DNA of 41,977 nt from a virus. Taxonomy: Duplodnaviria > Heunggongvirae > Uroviricota > Caudoviricetes. The notes beneath the pieces are model-generated. The model saw only the letters and a list, made by a program, of their open reading frames with translations, searched no databases and was not told the origin of the DNA. Where the stretch lies: positions 1 to 41,977 of the IMG/VR virus record IMGVR_UViG_2563366853_000004; one strand, written 5' to 3'. Made by a program: the position numbers and the translations under genes. This document shows positions 1 through 11,698 of the stretch, piece after piece (the first letter of the stretch is position 1; each line of letters opens with the position of its first letter).

Positions 1-1284
1 CTACTTCTTCGCCTCTGCAACCACTTTGCTACCCACGCCGCGGTTATTGTATTCCCACATGCGGTTGTAGTTAGTGTCATTCAGATTGCGCTGTACTTCG
101 TCGTTATCATCAACGCTGCCGGTGTTACCCGCAAATGGACGATTAGAGATCACCGCATCAGCCCACGGTTTGGCTGTGTTAAAACCTTCGTTGATGGCGC
201 TATCACGGATCACTACCTGACCGTTGGTATTGGCATCAACATCCAGCGAGCGGCCCAGTTGCGCCACGCCATCACCGGAAGCATTGAAACGGCTGTTTAC
301 GGCGAGGAAACCGTAGTAAATGTTGGACAGCGTAGCCGGTGCAAACACATACGCTTCTTGCTGGGTACGGGAGTTCACCACGCGGAATTCGGTGTTATCG
401 AACACCACTGCGCCGCGACCAGAAACGATATCCACATCCCCTTCAATATAGCTGTTGGTCACCAGCGTACGCGGCTGACGATTCGTTTCCAGACGGTTCT
501 GCACACCGCTGTTGGTGACAAAGAAGGTGTTCTGACGACCGAGAATGTTGACGTTATTGATCTGCACTTTGTCGCCATCAGTACGCAGTGCCACCGCCGG
601 ATGGTTACCCGCATCTACGCTATCGCCCAGCGTGTTTTCGATGGTCAGGTTTTGCAGTTGCAGGCCATTGTTTTGTGACCAGAAGACCGCAGAGCAGAGA
701 ACACCGATACTGTCGCTGCGTTTACTCTGGCAGCTATCGTACATATACCACGCCGGTTTACCTGGCATATATTTGCCGCGCGGGTTGACGTCGTGACGCC
801 AGTCGGCAGGGCTCATGCCACCATCAAGGGAAAGCCCAATCTTCACATCAATCGGTTTTTCACCCGTACCGTACAGAGTAATTCCACCCGGAGCGGCAGG
901 GACATACACCGTTCCCTGATACTCACCAGGCATCACGGCAATATACTGGCGCTTGTTGGTACGCTTGATAATTGCCGCATCTACCGCCGCCTGAATCGTG
1001 GTATGCGTTACACCTTGAGTACCCGCCGGGCCGACAACAAAGTCAGGTTGCGCAGGCAGGGTAATCGGGGAAGGATTCCACGCTGCCGCACCTGGTGTCA
1101 GGGATGCAAAATAGTGTTGAGCATCGAAATTCTGCGCTTCTTTTGCCGACAGAATCGGGCGCGAAGAGGTACCAGGCGCGGTTTGATCAGAAGGACGTTG
1201 ATCGGGCGGTGTTGAGCTACAGGCGGTCAGCGTCACGCCAAAAGCCAATGCCAGCGCCAGACGGGAAACTGAAAATGTGTTCAC
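1..1284 (-). CDS. ybhC: YbhC-like lipoprotein (pectinesterase-fold putative acyl-CoA thioesterase), host gene flanking lambda attB
   Basis: 427-aa ORF with lipoprotein signal (…LTAC) and GTG start at 1284; recalled as the E. coli gene immediately left of lambda attB; the att core lies 47 bp downstream of its start. Confidence 0.85.
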   Translation of the reverse strand: MNTFSVSRLALALAFGVTLTACSSTPPDQRPSDQTAPGTSSRPILSAKEAQNFDAQHYFASLTPGAAAWNPSPITLPAQPDFVVGPAGTQGVTHTTIQAAVDAAIIKRTNKRQYIAVMPGEYQGTVYVPAAPGGITLYGTGEKPIDVKIGLSLDGGMSPADWRHDVNPRGKYMPGKPAWYMYDSCQSKRSDSIGVLCSAVFWSQNNGLQLQNLTIENTLGDSVDAGNHPAVALRTDGDKVQINNVNILGRQNTFFVTNSGVQNRLETNRQPRTLVTNSYIEGDVDIVSGRGAVVFDNTEFRVVNSRTQQEAYVFAPATLSNIYYGFLAVNSRFNASGDGVAQLGRSLDVDANTNGQVVIRDSAINEGFNTAKPWADAVISNRPFAGNTGSVDDNDEVQRNLNDTNYNRMWEYNNRGVGSKVVAEAKK

Positions 1285-4799: not shown

Positions 4800-4997
4800 T
4801 CAATACACGAAATCTGTTTTAAATTCATGGTTACATTCTGGACAGCATGTTTCGTAACCTTTTATTTCTTCACATGCCTGTTTAGCTCCAGAAAACTCCC
4901 AGAAATCTGGATCACAAAGCAGATCGAAATTGTGACCACATTTGGGACATTCGGTATCAAGTGACAGACTCCAGTAAGCAGGGGTATTTTTATCCAT
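4800..4997 (-). CDS. Small Zn-ribbon protein (double CxxC)
   Basis: AGGAG 6 nt upstream of the ATG at 4997 (MDKNTPAYW…); CPKCGHNF…CCPECNHEF motifs. Confidence 0.55.
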   Translation of the reverse strand: MDKNTPAYWSLSLDTECPKCGHNFDLLCDPDFWEFSGAKQACEEIKGYETCCPECNHEFKTDFVY

Positions 4998-4998
4998 A

Positions 4999-5187
4999 TC
5001 ACTCTCCTTTAGTGCGCAAGTGGTTTTTCCAGAGGTTTTGCGCCGCGCTGGGCTTTTTGCAAAACCCACAATCCATCATCCCGTAATATTTCATCAACCC
5101 CATCCGTCGGTTGCTGAGTCTCACCCACTGCCAGACGCCAGGAGCGTTTCTACGAACTAACAGAATCTTTGCTTTACGGTTTTTCAT
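4999..5187 (-). CDS. Small basic ORF (MKNRKAK…), uncertain
   Basis: 62-aa ORF whose stop abuts the start of the Zn-ribbon gene; weak SD; its 5' end is repeated at 5341..5360. Confidence 0.3.
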   Translation of the reverse strand: MKNRKAKILLVRRNAPGVWQWVRLSNRRMGLMKYYGMMDCGFCKKPSAAQNLWKNHLRTKGE

Positions 5188-5532
5188 CTTACTGCGTACC
5201 CTTTCTTCCGCCTGTTCTGTGACGCAGTAGGCTTACGCTTTGCGGCAAAAGCCACCTGACCAAATGGATGGAGTACCGCTATCTTATGGTTGCTAATAAC
5301 CAGCTCCACCACACGCACAGGTCGCTGTAAAAAAAGTCGTTTTGCCTTACGGTTTTTCATCGCTTTGCTCTCCTGCGTCTCTTTGCTGCTCGTCGTGCCG
5401 CTGCAATACCGGTATGGCGGCGCTTTGGTACTGGGGTGATGTTGTCAGCCATCAGGACCTGTGGCTTTGCAATTAGCGCAGAAGCCCAAAAACGAGTCGG
5501 GTACGGTAACAAGCCAATACATGCCACACGCA

Positions 5533-6087
5533 CTACTCACCTCCGTTGATGCGAATGCCTGTTGCAATGCTGTTTATGATGCTGTCAGTGCATGGGGTAG
5601 AAAGCTGGGCATCTCCAGCAATTTTCATGACATCAACATCTGCATATCGAATACCGAGGTGTATCAGACCGGCTATACCTGACTTAAGCCGAGCATTTTC
5701 CATAAACAGATCCTTTGCCCGCTGTTTTTCTGCCTCAAGCTCAACGCGCAACTTCCCTACCGTTAACGCAATATCCTCGTTCTCCTGGTCGCGGCGTTTG
5801 ATGTATTGCTGGTTTCTTTCCCGTTCATCCAGCAGCGCCAGTACGGTAGCCGGATTGGCTGCGGCGATGAATTCAGCATTGGCCTGCTGTTCCATTTGGA
5901 AATCTTCATCGAAACCGCTTTCAGGATGTGCTCCTTCAATTCTGCAAATGGGAAGATATCCAACAACTTCACGATGAATTAACGCATCATCACAATCAAA
6001 TCGGCTCTCTCCATATTCGAGCGACCATACACCACACGTTGCTTTTTCTGCCTTGGCACGCAGTGCCTGATAGTCAATCTTGCTCAC
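5533..6087 (-). CDS. Ead/Ea22-like early protein
   Basis: N-terminus [21 protein letters not shown]… and the AEFIAAANPATVLALLDE motif recalled from the Ea22-like family. Confidence 0.6.
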   Translation of the reverse strand: MSKIDYQALRAKAEKATCGVWSLEYGESRFDCDDALIHREVVGYLPICRIEGAHPESGFDEDFQMEQQANAEFIAAANPATVLALLDERERNQQYIKRRDQENEDIALTVGKLRVELEAEKQRAKDLFMENARLKSGIAGLIHLGIRYADVDVMKIAGDAQLSTPCTDSIINSIATGIRINGGE

Positions 6088-6599
6088 TGGTTGCCTCCTT
6101 TGCGAAGTTTCGCGGCAAAATCAGCCGCAACCTCTTTGACCATATTGGAAAGCGGAGTGCCACCTCCGAATTTTTCTGAGAACATCTCCACGCCCTGTGC
6201 CCGCAGTTCCGACAGGAAAGCGTCGGTGGCTTGGGTTTCGATATCGTTAATTTCAGGAAGAATCTCTTCCCATGTAGCGATATCGCCATTCAAATGCCAT
6301 CCGGCAATTCCACTGGAGTTATCCGCAACACTGCGAACGGCTTCAATAGTTTCATGCATTGCCGCATTCTCCGCTGCCAGCGCCGAAAACTTCTCGTGTG
6401 CCAACTTAACAGCCGCATCAGCCTGCTTAATTGACTCAATCGCTTTCTGGTGGTCTTCGGACAGAGCCGAAATCTTGGCCTCCGCTTCAGCAAATTTACG
6501 CACCAGATATTCAGCGTTTGTTTCGTTAACCTTTAAATCTCGTGGGATGCATTTACCTTTCAGAAAACCATCCATCTCAATTAGTGACATTTGTTTCAT
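6084..6599 (-). CDS. Hypothetical coiled-coil protein
   Basis: ORF track gives a GTG start at 6617; an ATG at 6599 overlaps the upstream stop as ATGA; overlaps the downstream gene start. Confidence 0.5.
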
Positions 6600-6760
6600 T
6601 TCTTCCCACTCCGCCACATCGCATTCAGATATTTGTTTTGATTCACTGATGGAAACGAGTTTTGCTTAAGTAATTCCTCTCTCGATGGCATTGGCTTTAC
6701 GCGTTGGCGAATAATCATTTCTGCCGGAAGAATGCCGGGATTGTATGCAAGTCCTCTCAT
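6596..6760 (-). CDS. Small hypothetical protein (54 aa)
   Basis: Hand-translated ORF below the track cutoff, coupled by ATGA overlaps at both ends (6757..6760 and 6596..6599). Confidence 0.35.
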
Positions 6761-7380: not shown

Positions 7381-7869
7381 TTATTTGATAAGAAGTGAAG
7401 GTTTCCCAACCTTGAGTTGAGCACCGGGAATATTTATTCCTGCTTTTAGTTGGTGCTTGATTGCCAGTTTGTCGGCTTTAATTGTCGTTTCAAACTCAAC
7501 GTATTCAGGAGGAAGGGCGCTTGAGTCGATTATTTCTACAATTTCTGACGGTTTGCGGATTGTTACCTGGTGAATACCTGCTCGAATATTTTTCTTGCCA
7601 ACCATTTCAAGCGATGACGCTATATATGATTTGATGCTGTCAATCTTATTTTGAATTACTGCGGCTCGCTCATTCAGTGACTTTGCCTCTTCCTTGAGGC
7701 GTTCGGCATAACCAGATTCATTTTTAATGACGGAAAGAAGTTGTTCTATTTTATCGGTAAATTCTCCTTCCATGCCTTCTATTGTGTCAGCAATCATCTC
7801 TGGTTCTAAATCTGAATCCATCAATTTTGCGTATTCATTGGCAATTTCATATAGTTTGCTCACTGGCAA
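7381..7869 (-). CDS. Siphovirus Gp157-like protein (RecT-associated)
   Basis: 162-aa translation resembles the Gp157 family usually found next to RecT-type recombinases; overlaps the recT 3' end. Confidence 0.55.
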   Translation of the reverse strand: MPVSKLYEIANEYAKLMDSDLEPEMIADTIEGMEGEFTDKIEQLLSVIKNESGYAERLKEEAKSLNERAAVIQNKIDSIKSYIASSLEMVGKKNIRAGIHQVTIRKPSEIVEIIDSSALPPEYVEFETTIKADKLAIKHQLKAGINIPGAQLKVGKPSLLIK

Positions 7870-8758
7870 CCTCCAGTTTCGCTTTGCATTCTATGTAAAT
7901 GGCTTGTACGTTCTGCTGCAATTTCATTCCAGATGTCAGGCGATATGCTTCTGCAAAATATCTCTTCAAATCATCCATGTTTTCAGCCTGAGCCATTTCA
8001 TCACAAAGAAGTTGTGCTTTTTCCGTTATTTCCTGCTGGCGTTTCCGTTCATCTTCGCGGATATCTTCCTCTGATTTATGCGGCATAACTGGTTCAGTCC
8101 ACACACCTTCTTCTTCGTTTAGTACGTGAATAGCACTATCAAGACGTGATGCCTTAGGCCAATACTTGCTTGCACGCTTTACGACCGTCTTTCGCGCCAT
8201 CTCATTCCAGTGATTTACCCATGGTCCTTTATCGCTGAATGCTGCCTTGCTTGTTTTCCTTACAGCCTCAATTTCAGCCAGACTCATCTCTTCCGTTAGA
8301 TAATCACCTGCTGGCGTCTTAACTGTGCAGTAAACGCCAACGATATCACCACGATCACCGAAGGCGTTGTATTTATGGGTTGGTGCTTTATCAAGCCCGT
8401 TTGACTCATAGGTATCGTTAGCATGAACAAGTTTTGCCTGACCCCATGAGATAACACCAGACTCCATTGCAATATGGAGCAATCCCATATAGCTGATATC
8501 AAGGCAAACCATGCCATCGCGCGGAACCAGATAAGCCAGTTTGCTTGCAGGGTTTAAGGTGATGCCGATCGCCGCAACATTGATGATGGCGTTCTGTGCG
8601 CTGGTTGGATTTGCCAGTGCTGTTTTAGCCAGGTAATCATTTTTCTGGAAATACTGAATTGCAAACTGGCTTTCCTTAGCCCATGTCACCGTCTGTTCAG
8701 TCAATGCTCCGCAGAATAACTGCTCCTGCTGTTTAACGAATTCAACGATATTGCTCAT
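7847..8758 (-). CDS. recT: RecT-family single-strand annealing recombinase
   Basis: 303-aa ORF; KGPWVNHWNEMARKTVVKRASKYWP resembles the conserved RecT segment NGPWVTHWEEMAKKTAIRRLFKYLP recalled from Rac RecT. Confidence 0.8.
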   Translation of the reverse strand: MSNIVEFVKQQEQLFCGALTEQTVTWAKESQFAIQYFQKNDYLAKTALANPTSAQNAIINVAAIGITLNPASKLAYLVPRDGMVCLDISYMGLLHIAMESGVISWGQAKLVHANDTYESNGLDKAPTHKYNAFGDRGDIVGVYCTVKTPAGDYLTEEMSLAEIEAVRKTSKAAFSDKGPWVNHWNEMARKTVVKRASKYWPKASRLDSAIHVLNEEEGVWTEPVMPHKSEEDIREDERKRQQEITEKAQLLCDEMAQAENMDDLKRYFAEAYRLTSGMKLQQNVQAIYIECKAKLEVASEQTI

Positions 8759-9631: not shown

Positions 9632-10255
9632 CTATGCGGCCTCGGAAGGAAGTCCAATCATCTTATTCAAATCTTCTACCCGTAAAGCAGGAAGTGCTGT
9701 ACTTGCTTTATCTGCTTCTTTTGGTAGCAATTCTTTGCTTTCAGGCCAAACTTCAATAAGTCGCTTAACTGTTGTGACTGAGTTCAAAGCAGCCCATACA
9801 TTTGATTCGATATCCTTTTTCTTGGCTTCAAGTTTTTGTTGCAATGCGCAGATTTCATCAAACCTTTTTGTTATTTCGTGTTCTGCGCTAAACATGCATT
9901 TATCTTTGGTCGGAGTAGGGAGCAATATATCTTCGCCGTTGCCGTCTTTCCCATATGAATGCCATCCAACCCTTCTGCCAGATACAGTCAGATAAATTGA
10001 AGTAGAACTAACATCGTATGAGTAAAATGAACATCCCATCTTTTCAAGTTCTTCACTTATAGCTACCAACTTGGATGATAACTGATCCACTTCCTCAGTT
10101 TTCTTTTTACCGCCAAACGCAATAACTCTGGCGTCAAGTGCAAGCTGGTTCTTTAACTTTGTTACTTCTTCAAGTTCAGTGAAAACCCCAGACTTAATTA
10201 AAGCGTTACGAGCGATTTCCTCTTTCATTCTCGTAGTTAAGCGGATTGATGACAT
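9632..10255 (-). CDS. Hypothetical 207-aa protein immediately downstream of N, AT-rich
   Basis: GAGG 7 nt upstream of the ATG at 10255 (MSSIRLTTRMKEEIARNAL…); no TM segments or recognisable motifs; occupies the ral/sieB position of the pL operon. Confidence 0.6.
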   Translation of the reverse strand: MSSIRLTTRMKEEIARNALIKSGVFTELEEVTKLKNQLALDARVIAFGGKKKTEEVDQLSSKLVAISEELEKMGCSFYSYDVSSTSIYLTVSGRRVGWHSYGKDGNGEDILLPTPTKDKCMFSAEHEITKRFDEICALQQKLEAKKKDIESNVWAALNSVTTVKRLIEVWPESKELLPKEADKASTALPALRVEDLNKMIGLPSEAA

Positions 10256-10266
10256 ATTAATTCCTC

Positions 10267-10593
10267 TCAAATAAGTGGTTTGCTGCCTAATTTCATTTTC
10301 TGGCGACCAACACAAGTCACGCCCATTTCACTGCGTGGCTTGCTGTACCATGTGCGCTGATTCTTGCGCTCAATACGTTGCAGGTTGCTTTCAATCTGTT
10401 CGTGGTATTCAGCCAGCACCGTAAGGTCTATCGGATTCAGTGCGCTTTCTACTCGTGATTTCGGTTTGCGATTCAGCGAGAGAATAGGGCGGTTAACTGG
10501 TTTTGCGCTTACCCCAACCAACAGGGGATTTGCTGCTTTCCATTGAGCCTGTTTCTCTGCGCGACGTTCGCGGCGGCGTGTTTGTGCATCCAT
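10267..10593 (-). CDS. N: Antitermination protein N
   Basis: MDAQTRRRERRAEKQAQWKAANPLLVGVSAKPVNRPILSLNRKPKSRVESALNPIDLTVLAEYH… is lambda N with a few C-terminal differences. Confidence 0.95.
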   Translation of the reverse strand: MDAQTRRRERRAEKQAQWKAANPLLVGVSAKPVNRPILSLNRKPKSRVESALNPIDLTVLAEYHEQIESNLQRIERKNQRTWYSKPRSEMGVTCVGRQKMKLGSKPLI

Positions 10594-10927: not shown

Positions 10928-11586
10928 TTAACTAAATGTCTCTTCAGGCCACTGGCTGGCGATAACTTTCCCTACTACGGAACAGCTATCATTGCATGGA
11001 ATCATTGGATATTGCGGGTTTAGTGGCTGTAGGAACACCTGACCGCTATCCCTGATCAGTTTCTTGAAGGTAAACTCGTCACCACCAAGTCTGGCTATGC
11101 AGAAATCACCTGGCTCAACAGCCTGCTCAGGGTCAACGAGAATTAACATCCCGTCAGGAAAGCTTGGCTTGGATCCTGTTGGCGCGGTCATGGAATTACC
11201 TTCAACTTCAAGCCAGAACGCACAATCACTGGCTTTTTTGGTTGTGCTGACCCATCTCTCCGCATCACCTTTGGTAAAGGTTCTAAGCTCAGGCGAGAAC
11301 ATCCCGGCCTGAACATGAGAAAAAACAGGGTACTCATATTGTTTTTTAACGGGGGCAGATGAGTATTCGCCAACAGGTGAAAATGTACCGTCGTGGTTGA
11401 ATGAGACGTTATCAATACCAAGGTATTTAAACACCACACCAATCTCGTCAAGAGATGGATGACGAGATCCGCGCAACCAGTGACCAATTCCACCCTGCGT
11501 CATACCAAGCTCTTCAGCTAACTTCTCTTGAGTTATGCCGAGCTCTTTCATTCTGGATCTAGCCAGTTCATACCATTTCATTTTCA
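10928..11586 (-). CDS. cI: CI-type repressor: lambda C-terminal domain fused to a non-lambda N-terminal HTH domain
   Basis: The C-terminal ~130 aa ([38 protein letters not shown]…[15 protein letters not shown]) are near-identical to lambda CI; the N-terminal ~95 aa ([37 protein letters not shown]…) are not. Start is 11586 or 11580. Confidence 0.85.
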
Positions 11587-11698
11587 TACCCTTATTATTA
11601 CGCTCTGTACTAAAACCATCCATGCACAAGATGTATTTTTTGTTTGCATTCTAAAAGTACATATCGTATTATTGTTTCATGGTTACTATGGAGGGCAT
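11587..11698. promoter_or_regulatory. OR/pRM/pR divergent promoter-operator region
   Basis: 112-bp AT-rich interval between divergent cI and cro, containing AGTAC-type motifs (AAAGTACATATCGTATT) similar to the OL side. Confidence 0.55.

What the first reader, a model, noticed from the sequence alone, without database searches (positions are those of the whole stretch)
4800..5452. Tandem basic micro-ORFs with a repeated 5' end and chained ATGA start/stop overlaps
Two ORFs begin with the same sequence ATGAAAAACCGTAA(A/G)GCAAA (minus strand; plus-strand copies at 5170..5187 and 5341..5360). The upstream one is preceded by a highly basic 31-aa peptide (MADNITPVPKRRHTGIAAARRAAKRRRRAKR) whose stop overlaps the next start. 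The downstream one ends exactly at the start of the Zn-ribbon gene. This looks like a duplicated leader or a set of translationally coupled regulatory mini-genes, not random ORFs.
Basis: seen in the sequence. Interest (0 to 1): 0.4.

Follow-up and report, generated by a model that had tools for sequence, protein, structure and literature searches.

The report
Chained small basic prophage early genes
The repeated starts and ATGA overlaps belong to three real, very basic proteins of about 60 residues, two of them diverged paralogues, packed into the early-left operon of a lambda-like prophage; the layout is ordinary for such phages and the proteins' function is unknown.

Summary
ATGAAAAACCGTAARGCAAA occurs twice, at 5341-5360 and 5168-5187 on the minus strand (0.01 expected by chance), and the ORFs are joined by ATGA overlaps. 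It is not a duplicated leader. The repeat encodes the conserved N-terminus MKNRKAK of two paralogous genes: ORF2 (58 aa) and ORF3 (62 aa), both PHROG 1380 and 35% identical. Across 81 DNA variants the invariant residues change only at third codon positions. pN/pS is 0.57 in frame against about 1.0 in the shifted frames, and 0.17 at the N-terminus. The chain lies between Ea22-like genes and the integrase, in the "exo-xis"-type early-left operon. Related phages carry one, two or three family copies. Chimeric copies exist, and the same 3' joint precedes at least six unrelated downstream genes, so the conserved ends behave as recombination joints. 4-nt overlaps are common elsewhere in this window. 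Function is unknown: Pfam, NCBIfam, PADLOC, PDB and Rfam gave nothing significant, and AlphaFold2 confidence was low. Nucleic-acid binding is inferred from charge alone (+13 to +15). The finding is ordinary in kind, and the family is catalogued but uncharacterised.

The parts
5357..5533 (-). ORF1: 58-aa basic protein (net charge about +14) with a hydrophobic N-terminal half and an Arg/Ala-rich C-terminal tail. GTG start.
   Evidence: Full-length match to phrog_13831, E 2.5e-39. 80 homologue clusters, mostly 56-58 aa. Among 40 unique DNA variants, entropy summed over codon positions 1/2/3 is 11.6/11.1/20.4, and the start codon is ATG in 30 and GTG in 10. Ribosome-binding duplex is -10.8 kcal/mol at 5533 against -3.2 at 5452.
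5184..5360 (-). ORF2: 58-aa MKNRKAK-family paralogue with an 'ISNHK' body and a '...QNRRKKGYAVR' tail. Net charge about +15.
   Evidence: phrog_1380, E 6.5e-23. RefSeq WP_000797289.1 at the matching position in H1. Within-type pN/pS 0.12. Members with this tail are followed by another family member through an ATGA overlap in every array resolved.
4999..5187 (-). ORF3: 62-aa MKNRKAK-family paralogue of type A with a '...QNRWKNHLRTKGE' tail. Net charge about +13. This copy carries R52L in the near-invariant QNRW motif.
   Evidence: phrog_1380 E 9e-40 and phrog_12350 E 1.5e-41. WP_000797279.1 at the matching position in H1 and H3, where the sequence has R52, so it differs from the window copy at that one residue. 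Within-type pN/pS 0.33. R52L was seen only here and in L005.
5341..5360 (-). Repeat copy 1: the first 20 nt of ORF2, ATGAAAAACCGTAAGGCAAA, encoding MKNRKAK.
   Evidence: The MKNRKAK codons vary only at third positions across 81 variants.
5168..5187 (-). Repeat copy 2: the first 20 nt of ORF3, ATGAAAAACCGTAAAGCAAA.
4999..5055 (-). 3' joint block of ORF3 (codons K45 to stop), encoding KPSAAQN(R/L)WKNHLRTKGE* and holding the ribosome-binding site (AAAGGAGAG) of the next gene. It is conserved at the DNA level beyond what the protein requires.
   Evidence: Synonymous divergence is 0.11 in this block against 0.26-0.50 in the rest of the gene among 51 members with this tail. The identical joint ...CACTAAAGGAGAGTGATATG precedes at least 6 unrelated downstream genes.
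4800..4997 (-). Downstream 65-aa CxxC...CxxC zinc-ribbon gene. Its ATG lies one base after the ORF3 stop. It is the next link of the chain, not part of the repeat family.
   Evidence: phrog_4173 E 2.9e-27. Only sub-threshold zinc-ribbon Pfam hits. Ribosome-binding duplex -9.1 kcal/mol.
5533..6087 (-). Upstream Ead/Ea22-like gene (184 aa). Its TAG shares one base with the ORF1 GTG. It marks the region as the exo-xis-type part of the early-left operon.
   Evidence: PF13935 Ead_Ea22, E 9.9e-33. Coordinates.

Best explanation
This is a stretch of the early-left operon of a lambda-like prophage, in the 'exo-xis'-type accessory region. It holds three real, very basic protein genes of about 60 codons, linked head to tail: ORF1 (PHROG 13831), then two diverged paralogues of the MKNRKAK family (PHROG 1380).

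Shown:
- The repeated 20 nt encodes the family's conserved N-terminal peptide.
- All three frames are under frame-specific purifying selection.
- Related phages carry one, two or three family copies, with chimeras between types. The same 5' and 3' joints adjoin different neighbouring genes.

Inferred from sequence and from published work on ATGA pairs:
- The genes are transcribed on one early message. No promoter-like or terminator-like site lies inside the chain.
- They are translated by ribosomes that terminate and restart at the ATGA or TGAnATG joints. Each gene's last codons supply the ribosome-binding site of the next. ORF3, whose own site is weak, depends most on this coupling.
- The conserved ends also act as short homologies where phage recombinases such as the RecT encoded in this operon add, delete or swap cassettes.

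Inferred from composition and position only:
- The products (net charge about +13 to +15) bind nucleic acid or an acidic host target.
- They act as dispensable early accessory factors, like other genes of this region.
For: Location:
- An S24 repressor lies at 10928-11629, RecT at 7847-8758, the Ea22-like gene at 5533-6087, and the integrase at 1419-2489. All are on the minus strand.
- 933W has the same layout, exo-orf60a-orf63-orf61-Ea22-...-xis-int, with ORF1 and one family gene after Ea22.

Coding:
- Family invariant residues M1-K7, S25, N26, K45 and N51 vary only at third codon positions in 81 DNA variants.
- pN/pS is 0.57 in frame against 1.08 and 1.02 in the shifted frames. It is 0.17 at the N-terminus, 0.32 at SNRR and 0.32 at the C-terminus.
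- Within types it is 0.12 (ORF2 type) and 0.33 (ORF3 type).
- For ORF1, third-position entropy is about twice that of positions 1 and 2, and the start alternates between ATG and GTG.

Paralogy: 35% identity, E 5e-9. Both hit phrog_1380.

Arrays, in 158 loci:
- 89 singletons, 62 doublets and one triplet (L121).
- Members with the 'AVR' tail are followed by ATGA plus another member in every array resolved.
- Chimeras with a type-A body and an AVR tail exist.
- 148 of 157 loci have ATGA at the first family start, and 114 of 157 have an ORF1 homologue ending there.

Joints:
- The identical 3' joint precedes at least 6 unrelated genes.
- The 3' block has synonymous divergence 0.11 against 0.26-0.50 elsewhere.

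Coupling:
- Ribosome-binding duplex energies are -10.8 (ORF1), -7.4 (ORF2), -4.5 (ORF3) and -9.1 (Zn) kcal/mol.
- 13 of 14 tested overlapping pairs were strictly coupled (PMC6728339).
- No minus-strand promoter-like or terminator-like site lies between 5533 and 4999. The nearest minus-strand terminator-like hairpin downstream is a weak one at 4911-4898, inside the Zn-ribbon gene.

Distant family members sit as singletons in early gene chains of a Mu-like phage (L158) and of a phage whose early operon encodes ERF and SSB (L162).
Against: - No expression data exist for these ORFs. The peptides and accessions appear in no searchable paper, nor in the supplements of an E. coli O157 Sakai ribosome-profiling study.
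- AlphaFold2 models are low confidence: pLDDT 66 and 63, pTM 0.25.
- No homology to any characterised protein, so the functional part rests on charge and position alone.
- Frameshifted or truncated alleles occur. Examples are ORF1 variant P0126, with an acidic tail, on 95 contigs; ORF2 in L063; and P0040/P0042. The genes are therefore dispensable and sometimes decaying.
- RefSeq annotation skips ORF1 in H1 and H3, and ORF2 in H3.
- The central third of the family proteins evolves nearly neutrally, with pN/pS 0.8-1.2.
- The window's ORF3 has R52L at a near-invariant residue.
- The loci are the best 80 hits from each of three searches, so architecture counts are not population frequencies.
Confidence: 0.75

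Rival explanations
1. Duplicated leader or upstream regulatory mini-ORFs. On this view the act of translating the short ORFs, not their peptides, controls expression of the Zn-ribbon and DUF551 genes downstream, as in attenuation or uORF-type control.
For: The ORFs are short and chained, and each overlaps the next start. ORF3's own ribosome-binding site is weak (-4.5 kcal/mol), so upstream translation probably does influence downstream yield.
Against: - The peptide sequences themselves are under purifying selection, with synonymous change at invariant residues.
- No terminator-like hairpin or Rfam element lies in the chain.
- The RNA folds no better than shuffles, with z-scores +0.8 and +1.2.
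- The same ORFs precede at least 6 unrelated downstream genes. Family members also occur alone in other phage types.
Confidence: 0.07
2. Spurious or decaying ORFs. On this view the region is a non-functional remnant of recombination between Ea22-type and downstream modules, and the open frames are kept by chance or by recent common ancestry.
For: Frameshifted alleles exist (P0126 on 95 contigs, L063, P0040/P0042). Annotation is inconsistent: L0068 in 933W and orf7/orf8 in VT2-Sakai are called in other frames, and RefSeq omits ORF1. The central segments evolve almost neutrally.
Against: - The excess of third-position change is frame-specific in all three ORFs. The shifted frames give pN/pS of about 1.
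- Diverged homologues at 35-60% identity keep the length, the start codon and the MKNRKAK / SNRR / SAAQNRWKNH motifs.
- The family is present in unrelated phage backbones.
Confidence: 0.08
3. The conserved ends exist mainly for nucleotide-level reasons, and protein function is secondary. They could be recombination 'linker' sequences, or an RNA element in the 3' block. Candidates for the latter are a hairpin or pseudoknot, or a recoding signal that fuses ORF3 to the downstream frame, which stays open through the block.
For: - The 3' block has unusually low synonymous divergence, 0.11 against 0.26-0.50.
- It adjoins many different genes exactly at the start codon.
- By eye, CCAGCG/CGCTGG and GCGCAA/TTGCGC could form interleaved stems in the common allele (sequence).
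- The frame of the downstream gene is open back into ORF3, and older annotations used it.
Against: - The 5' repeat shows normal synonymous divergence across the family (pS 0.27-0.42) with pN/pS 0.17-0.19, so its conservation is at the protein level.
- The 3' block folds no better than shuffles (z +1.2), and this window's own allele (CGC to CTC) breaks one stem.
- There is no Rfam match.
- The AAAAAG run upstream is absent from types B and C.
- Distant members keep SAAQNRWKNH as protein with other tails.
Confidence: 0.1

Closest known systems
Small accessory genes of the lambda and Stx-phage exo-xis region (orf60a, orf63, orf61, orf73, ea22, ea8.5, orf55; Donaldson 2021, PMC8614690)
   Same: Same genomic position: downstream of the recombination genes and Ea22, upstream of xis/int, on the early-left transcript. 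Small, non-essential, tightly packed ORFs. The review notes that a variable gene set follows ea22 in Stx phages, with full or partial duplications. 933W carries ORF1 plus one family gene at the same place.
   Different: No sequence relationship to any of the characterised exo-xis proteins. None of those is described as a copy-number-variable tandem family. No phenotype or structure is known for these ORFs.
Overlapping stop/start gene pairs coupled by termination-reinitiation (Huber et al. 2019, PMC6728339). From my own knowledge, the classic phage example is the chain of interlinked genes in the lambda ninR region (Kroger & Hobom 1982).
   Same: Co-directional genes with ATGA or TGAnATG joints, and a ribosome-binding site inside the upstream coding sequence. 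The overlap type is common in this same window.
   Different: Coupling has not been measured for these pairs. Here the last codons that carry the binding site (RAKR*, KGE*) are also part of conserved joints shared between unrelated genes.
Mosaic gene-boundary joints of lambdoid phages and relaxed homologous recombination by Rad52-like recombinases (De Paepe et al. 2014, PMC3945230, title and abstract seen). From my own knowledge, conserved 'boundary sequences' were described for HK620 and HK97 (Clark 2001; Juhala 2000).
   Same: The identical short sequence ends exactly at the start codon of at least 6 different downstream genes. Chimeric family members and one to three copies occur. A RecT gene sits in the same operon.
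   Different: Here the homologies lie inside coding sequence, at the conserved N- and C-termini of one small family. The same recombination therefore also changes the family's copy number. No recombination event was observed directly.
Arginine-rich-motif RNA-binding peptides such as lambda N (own knowledge)
   Same: The ORF1 tail KRRHTGIAAARRAAKRRRRAKR is Arg/Ala-rich and predicted helical, though at low confidence. It is encoded in the early-left operon.
   Different: The motif is C-terminal, not N-terminal. There is no sequence homology. No boxB-like hairpin partner was identified, and the gene is far from the promoter-proximal N position. This is a resemblance only.

Membership tests
PHROG 1380 (MKNRKAK small basic phage proteins, function unknown) | Full-length profile match | tested here: met
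   ORF3 E 9.1e-40 (residues 1-62 on profile positions 1-62 of 62). ORF2 E 6.5e-23 (1-58 on 1-60 of 62).
PHROG 1380 (MKNRKAK small basic phage proteins, function unknown) | Family motifs: MKNRKAK at the N-terminus, a central SN[RH][RK], and a C-terminal KP[ST]A[AS]QNR[WR]K | tested here: met
   Alignments A2 and A3. The one exception is that the window's ORF3 has L in place of R52.
PHROG 13831 (ORF1) | Full-length profile match from the upstream start | tested here: met
   The 58-aa form gives E 2.5e-39 over 1-58 of 58. The 31-aa form matches only profile positions 28-58.
Translationally coupled overlapping gene pairs (termination-reinitiation) | Co-directional genes with an ATGA or TGATG-type stop/start overlap or near-abutment | tested here: met
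   TAGTG at 5533, ATGA at 5360-5357 and at 5187-5184, TGAtATG at 5001-4995.
Translationally coupled overlapping gene pairs (termination-reinitiation) | Ribosome-binding motif located inside the upstream gene | tested here: met
   Duplex energies with the anti-SD are -10.8, -7.4, -4.5 and -9.1 kcal/mol.
Translationally coupled overlapping gene pairs (termination-reinitiation) | Downstream translation depends on upstream translation | not testable with these tools
   Needs reporter fusions with premature stop codons in the upstream gene.
Leader peptide / attenuator | Terminator or alternative RNA structure between the leader ORF and the regulated gene | tested here: not met
   No minus-strand terminator-like site within 5533-4999. 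No Rfam match. Folding z-scores +0.8 and +1.2.
Leader peptide / attenuator | A fixed regulated gene downstream of the leader | tested here: not met
   At least 6 unrelated genes follow the same ORF.
Lambda N-type arginine-rich antiterminator | N-terminal arginine-rich motif, promoter-proximal gene, cognate boxB hairpins | tested here: not met
   The motif is C-terminal. The gene lies about 5 kb downstream of the repressor and promoter region. No homology. boxB partners were not searched for.
Known anti-phage defence or characterised protein families (PADLOC, Pfam, NCBIfam, PDB) | Significant profile or sequence match | tested here: not met
   No hit above the noise for ORF1, ORF2 or ORF3.

The most novel reading that the evidence does not exclude
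The MKNRKAK genes could be a recombination-shuffled cassette array of one to three copies. Each small basic protein would have fixed N- and C-terminal 'handles' and a fast-evolving central segment that sets target specificity. The array, possibly working with ORF1, which usually precedes it, would serve phage-host or phage-phage conflict, for example by counter-defence or exclusion. Its spread across lambdoid, phiV10-type, Mu-like and P1-like elements would then reflect selection for new specificities. The evidence does not exclude this. It does not specifically support it beyond near-neutral evolution of the centre and the copy-number variation.
Probability: 0.12. Interest if true: 0.55.

Novelty: new member of a known kind. 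Interest (0 to 1): 0.22.

Why it matters
The practical value is mainly in annotation. This stretch is called differently in different records. 933W (L0068) and VT2-Sakai (orf7, orf8) use other frames or long extensions. RefSeq omits ORF1, and sometimes ORF2. The codon-level evidence here fixes the frames and the ORF1 start.

The locus is also a compact example of how lambdoid phages shuffle accessory genes at joints that coincide with start and stop codons, and of how the same short homologies can change the copy number of a small gene family. The proteins themselves are uncharacterised early genes. They are common in Shiga-toxin prophages and P1-like plasmids, so a phenotype would interest researchers working on prophage induction. 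Nothing found here predicts one.

Tried and rejected
- **Homology to characterised proteins.** Pfam, NCBIfam, PADLOC and PDB sequence searches gave nothing significant for ORF1-3.
- **Structure.** AlphaFold2 on 20-sequence alignments gave low-confidence all-helical models (pLDDT 66 and 63, pTM 0.25). I did not run fold searches because the matches would be meaningless.
- **Reach of the family.** An exhaustive profile search of 1.84 billion representatives found only 47 clusters. The three long multi-repeat hits (P0160, P0167, P0169) are repetitive junk, not relatives.
- **Species-representative genomes.** The scan found no relative.
- **RNA element.** No Rfam hit and no excess folding stability.
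- **Pseudoknot in the 3' block.** By eye I saw two interleaved 6-bp stems in the common allele. I rejected the idea for lack of stability and covariation, and because this window's own allele breaks one stem.
- **-1 frameshifting at AAAAAG.** The run is not conserved in types B and C, and the spacer is too short.
- **Expression evidence.** No paper mentions the peptides or accessions. The supplements of a Sakai ribosome-profiling study do not contain them. The exo-xis expression paper did not measure genes downstream of ea22.
- **Positive selection on the central segment.** pN/pS is 0.8-1.25, not clearly above 1, and counts are small.
Full report
**1. Observation**

On the minus strand, ATGAAAAACCGTAARGCAAA occurs exactly twice in the window, at 5341-5360 and 5168-5187. 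No further match appears even with 3 mismatches allowed. The expected number is 0.01, and the two copies lie 173 nt apart.

Each copy opens an ORF: ORF2 (5360-5184, 58 aa) and ORF3 (5187-4999, 62 aa). The basic 31-aa peptide from ATG 5452 ends in a TGA that overlaps the ORF2 ATG as ATGA. ORF2 and ORF3 overlap in the same way. The ORF3 TGA is followed by one base and then the ATG (4997) of a 65-aa CxxC...CxxC gene. The description is therefore correct, apart from small coordinate details.

Two additions change the picture.
- The frame of the basic peptide is open back to a GTG at 5533. That GTG shares one base with the TAG of the upstream gene.
- ORF2 and ORF3 are similar along their whole length, at 35% identity over 51 residues, E 5e-9.

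4-nt stop/start overlaps are also frequent elsewhere in this window. At least seven other pairs of ORFs of 90 aa or more overlap this way.

**2. Context**

The chain lies on the minus strand among these genes:
- an S24-type repressor gene (10928-11629);
- RecT (7847-8758);
- two Ea22-like ORFs (6617-6084 and 6087-5533); only 6087-5533 hits Pfam Ead_Ea22, and 6617-6084 is called Ea22-like from its position and its similarity to the gene preceding ORF1 in TL-2011b;
- a DUF551 gene (4789-3584);
- a lambda-type integrase (1419-2489);
- a host pectinesterase-like gene at the window edge.

This is the early-left operon of a lambda-like prophage, in the part called the exo-xis region in lambda and Shiga-toxin phages. 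In 933W the order is gam-bet-exo-orf60a-orf63-orf61-Ea22-like, followed by an ORF1 homologue, a single MKNRKAK gene, other small genes, xis and int. A review of this region says that a variable gene set follows ea22 in Stx phages, with full or partial duplications. It gives no function for these ORFs (PMC8614690).

No sigma-70-like promoter or minus-strand terminator-like site lies inside 5533-4999.

Near-identical DNA (99% over 610 nt) is present in 872 of 5,426 complete E. coli genomes, on chromosomes and on plasmids of about 90-100 kb. It is also in 104 phage records, among them Stx phages, phiV10-type phages, records named Escherichia phage P1 or Punavirus P1, and RCS47.

**3. Are the ORFs genes?**

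Profile matches:
- ORF2 and ORF3 both match PHROG 1380 over their full length (E 6.5e-23 and 9e-40).
- The 58-aa form of ORF1 matches PHROG 13831 over its full length (E 2.5e-39).
- The 31-aa form covers only the second half of that profile.

I collected 157 related loci plus the window and extracted 81 distinct DNA variants of the MKNRKAK family.

Codon-level evidence for the family:
- The invariant residues (M1-K7, S25, N26, K45, N51) show zero variation at codon positions 1 and 2, but clear variation at position 3.
- Pooled pairwise pN/pS is 0.57 in the annotated frame, and 1.08 and 1.02 in the two shifted frames.
- By segment it is 0.17 at the N-terminus, 0.32 around SNRR, 0.32 at the C-terminus and about 0.8 in the two variable segments.
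- Within single types, whole-gene pN/pS is 0.12 for the ORF2 type and 0.33 for the ORF3 type.

Evidence for ORF1:
- Among 40 DNA variants, summed entropies at codon positions 1/2/3 are 11.6/11.1/20.4. Synonymous variation occurs in both halves.
- The upstream start is ATG in 30 variants and GTG in 10.
- Its ribosome-binding duplex is -10.8 kcal/mol, against -3.2 for the internal ATG at 5452.
- The internal ATG is absent from several lineages: the 933W-type deletion and the FTDDMGYP and FTTDGGIP variants.

The conserved unit is therefore the 58-aa ORF. The repeated 5' end is a conserved N-terminal peptide, not a leader.

**4. Anatomy of the family and the array**

Members share MKNRKAK, then hydrophobic residues, a variable stretch, [LIV]SN[RH][RK], a second variable stretch, and KP[ST]A[AS]QNR[WR]K plus a tail. 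There are two tail types.
- '...QNRRKKGYAVR*' ends in ATGA. In every array I could resolve it is followed by another family member.
- '...QNRWKNHLRTKGE*' ends the array. It is followed, after TGAtATG, by some other gene.

Architectures in the sampled loci:

| Architecture | Loci |
|---|---|
| Singletons | 89 |
| Doublets | 62 |
| Triplet (L121) | 1 |
| Doublet plus a separate third copy (L021) | 1 |

The doublets break down as ORF2 type + A (40), ORF2 type + C (10), E + C (7) and A with an AVR tail + C (5). Bodies of type A carrying the AVR tail are chimeras, which places crossovers in the conserved KPSAAQNR segment.

The 3' joint ...CACTAAAGGAGAGTGATATG is identical in front of at least six unrelated downstream genes, and similarity stops at the start codon. 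Within KGE-tailed members this last ~55 nt has synonymous divergence 0.11, against 0.26-0.50 in the rest of the gene. That fits recent recombinational spread of the joint.

At the 5' side, 148 of 157 loci have ATGA at the first family start. In 114 of them an ORF1 homologue ends there. When ORF1 is missing, the short ...RRAKR* / AGGAGAGCAAAGCGATGA joint is still kept.

These counts come from the best 80 hits of three searches. They are not population frequencies.

**5. How it most likely works**

Steps shown:
- These are real coding frames.
- ORF2 and ORF3 are paralogues.
- Copy number varies between related phages.
- The joints are shared by different neighbouring genes.

Steps inferred:
- One early transcript covers the chain.
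- Ribosomes finishing one gene restart on the next at the ATGA or TGAnATG joints, helped by binding sites embedded in the last codons (GGAGGTGAG, AGGAGAG, AAAGGAGAG). ORF3 has only a weak site of its own (-4.5 kcal/mol), so it should depend most on ORF2 translation. In E. coli and Haloferax, 13 of 14 such pairs tested were strictly coupled (PMC6728339).
- The ~20-nt 5' and ~55-nt 3' homologies are substrates for phage single-strand-annealing recombinases, which tolerate short, diverged homology (PMC3945230, abstract). This operon encodes a RecT. Recombination between the two 20-nt repeats 173 nt apart would convert a doublet into a singleton precisely.

Function is the weakest step. All three proteins are extremely basic (net about +14, +15 and +13 by my count from the sequences). 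The ORF1 tail is an Arg/Ala-rich putative helix. I therefore favour binding to nucleic acid or to an acidic host protein, with a dispensable accessory role like that of other exo-xis genes. Nothing tests this.

**6. Negative results**

- No Pfam, NCBIfam, PADLOC or PDB relatives.
- AlphaFold2 models are of low confidence, so no fold search was run.
- No Rfam family and no excess RNA stability.
- No paper or Sakai ribosome-profiling supplement mentions these peptides.
- The family is small: 47 clusters at 50% identity among 1.84 billion representatives. Every hit that a source names to organism is Escherichia or Salmonella, or one of their phages.
- Distant members are singletons in early gene chains of a Mu-like phage (upstream of gemA and mor; L158) and of a phage whose early operon encodes ERF and SSB (L162). 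They again show 4-nt overlaps.

**7. Caveats**

- Frameshifted alleles exist: P0126 on 95 contigs, L063, and P0040/P0042.
- RefSeq does not annotate ORF1 in the two records inspected, and older annotations chose other frames.
- The window's ORF3 carries R52L in the QNRW motif, shared only with L005.

**8. Verdict**

The arrangement is a standard feature of lambdoid early operons, and the proteins are already catalogued as hypothetical. The only mildly unusual aspect is the family itself. It forms a tandem array of variable copy number, it is shuffled by recombination, and its members have conserved ends and a fast-evolving centre. Interest is low to modest.

Noticed in passing
window 4999-5187 (codon 52, about 5032-5034): This window's ORF3 has Leu in place of the near-invariant Arg in the QNRW motif (AAQNLW). 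Among 158 loci only L005 shares it. It may be a weakened allele.
   Followed up: partly
window 4800-5001; H51 (NZ_AP029607.1): The junction of ORF3 with this particular Zn-ribbon gene (MDKNTPAYW...) is rare. Only one other complete E. coli record, a 96-kb plasmid, has it contiguous. The Zn-ribbon protein itself is found mainly in Klebsiella and Salmonella phages (26 and 8 of 43 matching records).
   Followed up: partly
window 5533-6617: Two Ea22-like ORFs sit in tandem (6617-6084 and 6087-5533) and overlap by 4 nt. Only the second hits Pfam Ead_Ea22. It is another duplicated module directly upstream of the chain.
   Followed up: no
L003 3797-4084 (933W L0068); L163 (VT2-Sakai orf7, orf8): Older annotations call long ORFs in other frames across ORF1 and ORF3. 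One is a 95-aa ORF that extends the downstream gene back into ORF3, and another is a 155-aa ORF that extends ORF3 upstream. PHROGs 12350 and 9263 probably derive from such calls or from fusions.
   Followed up: partly
L002 (plasmid p1_000533), H26-H28 (P1 records): The whole lambdoid cassette, Ea22-ORF1-ORF2-ORF3-small gene-DUF551-eaa, sits in plasmids of about 92-98 kb and in records named Escherichia phage P1 or Punavirus P1. In L002 it lies near genes for DNA polymerase III theta subunit and an S24 peptidase. Early accessory modules therefore move between phage types.
   Followed up: no
window 9632-10315 (minus strand): A 227-aa ORF in the same early-left operon is a strong match to Nmad5, nucleotide modification associated domain 5 (E 1.6e-71).
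   Followed up: no
window 1-1284 and 1419-2489: The prophage integrase abuts a host pectinesterase-like gene. It is possibly ybhC, which flanks the lambda attachment site; that is from memory and was not checked.
   Followed up: no
L158 2253-2871: A distant MKNRKAR-family member lies in the early region of a Mu-like phage, upstream of gemA and mor. It is linked by 4-nt overlaps to an 83-aa and a 61-aa gene of unknown function.
   Followed up: partly
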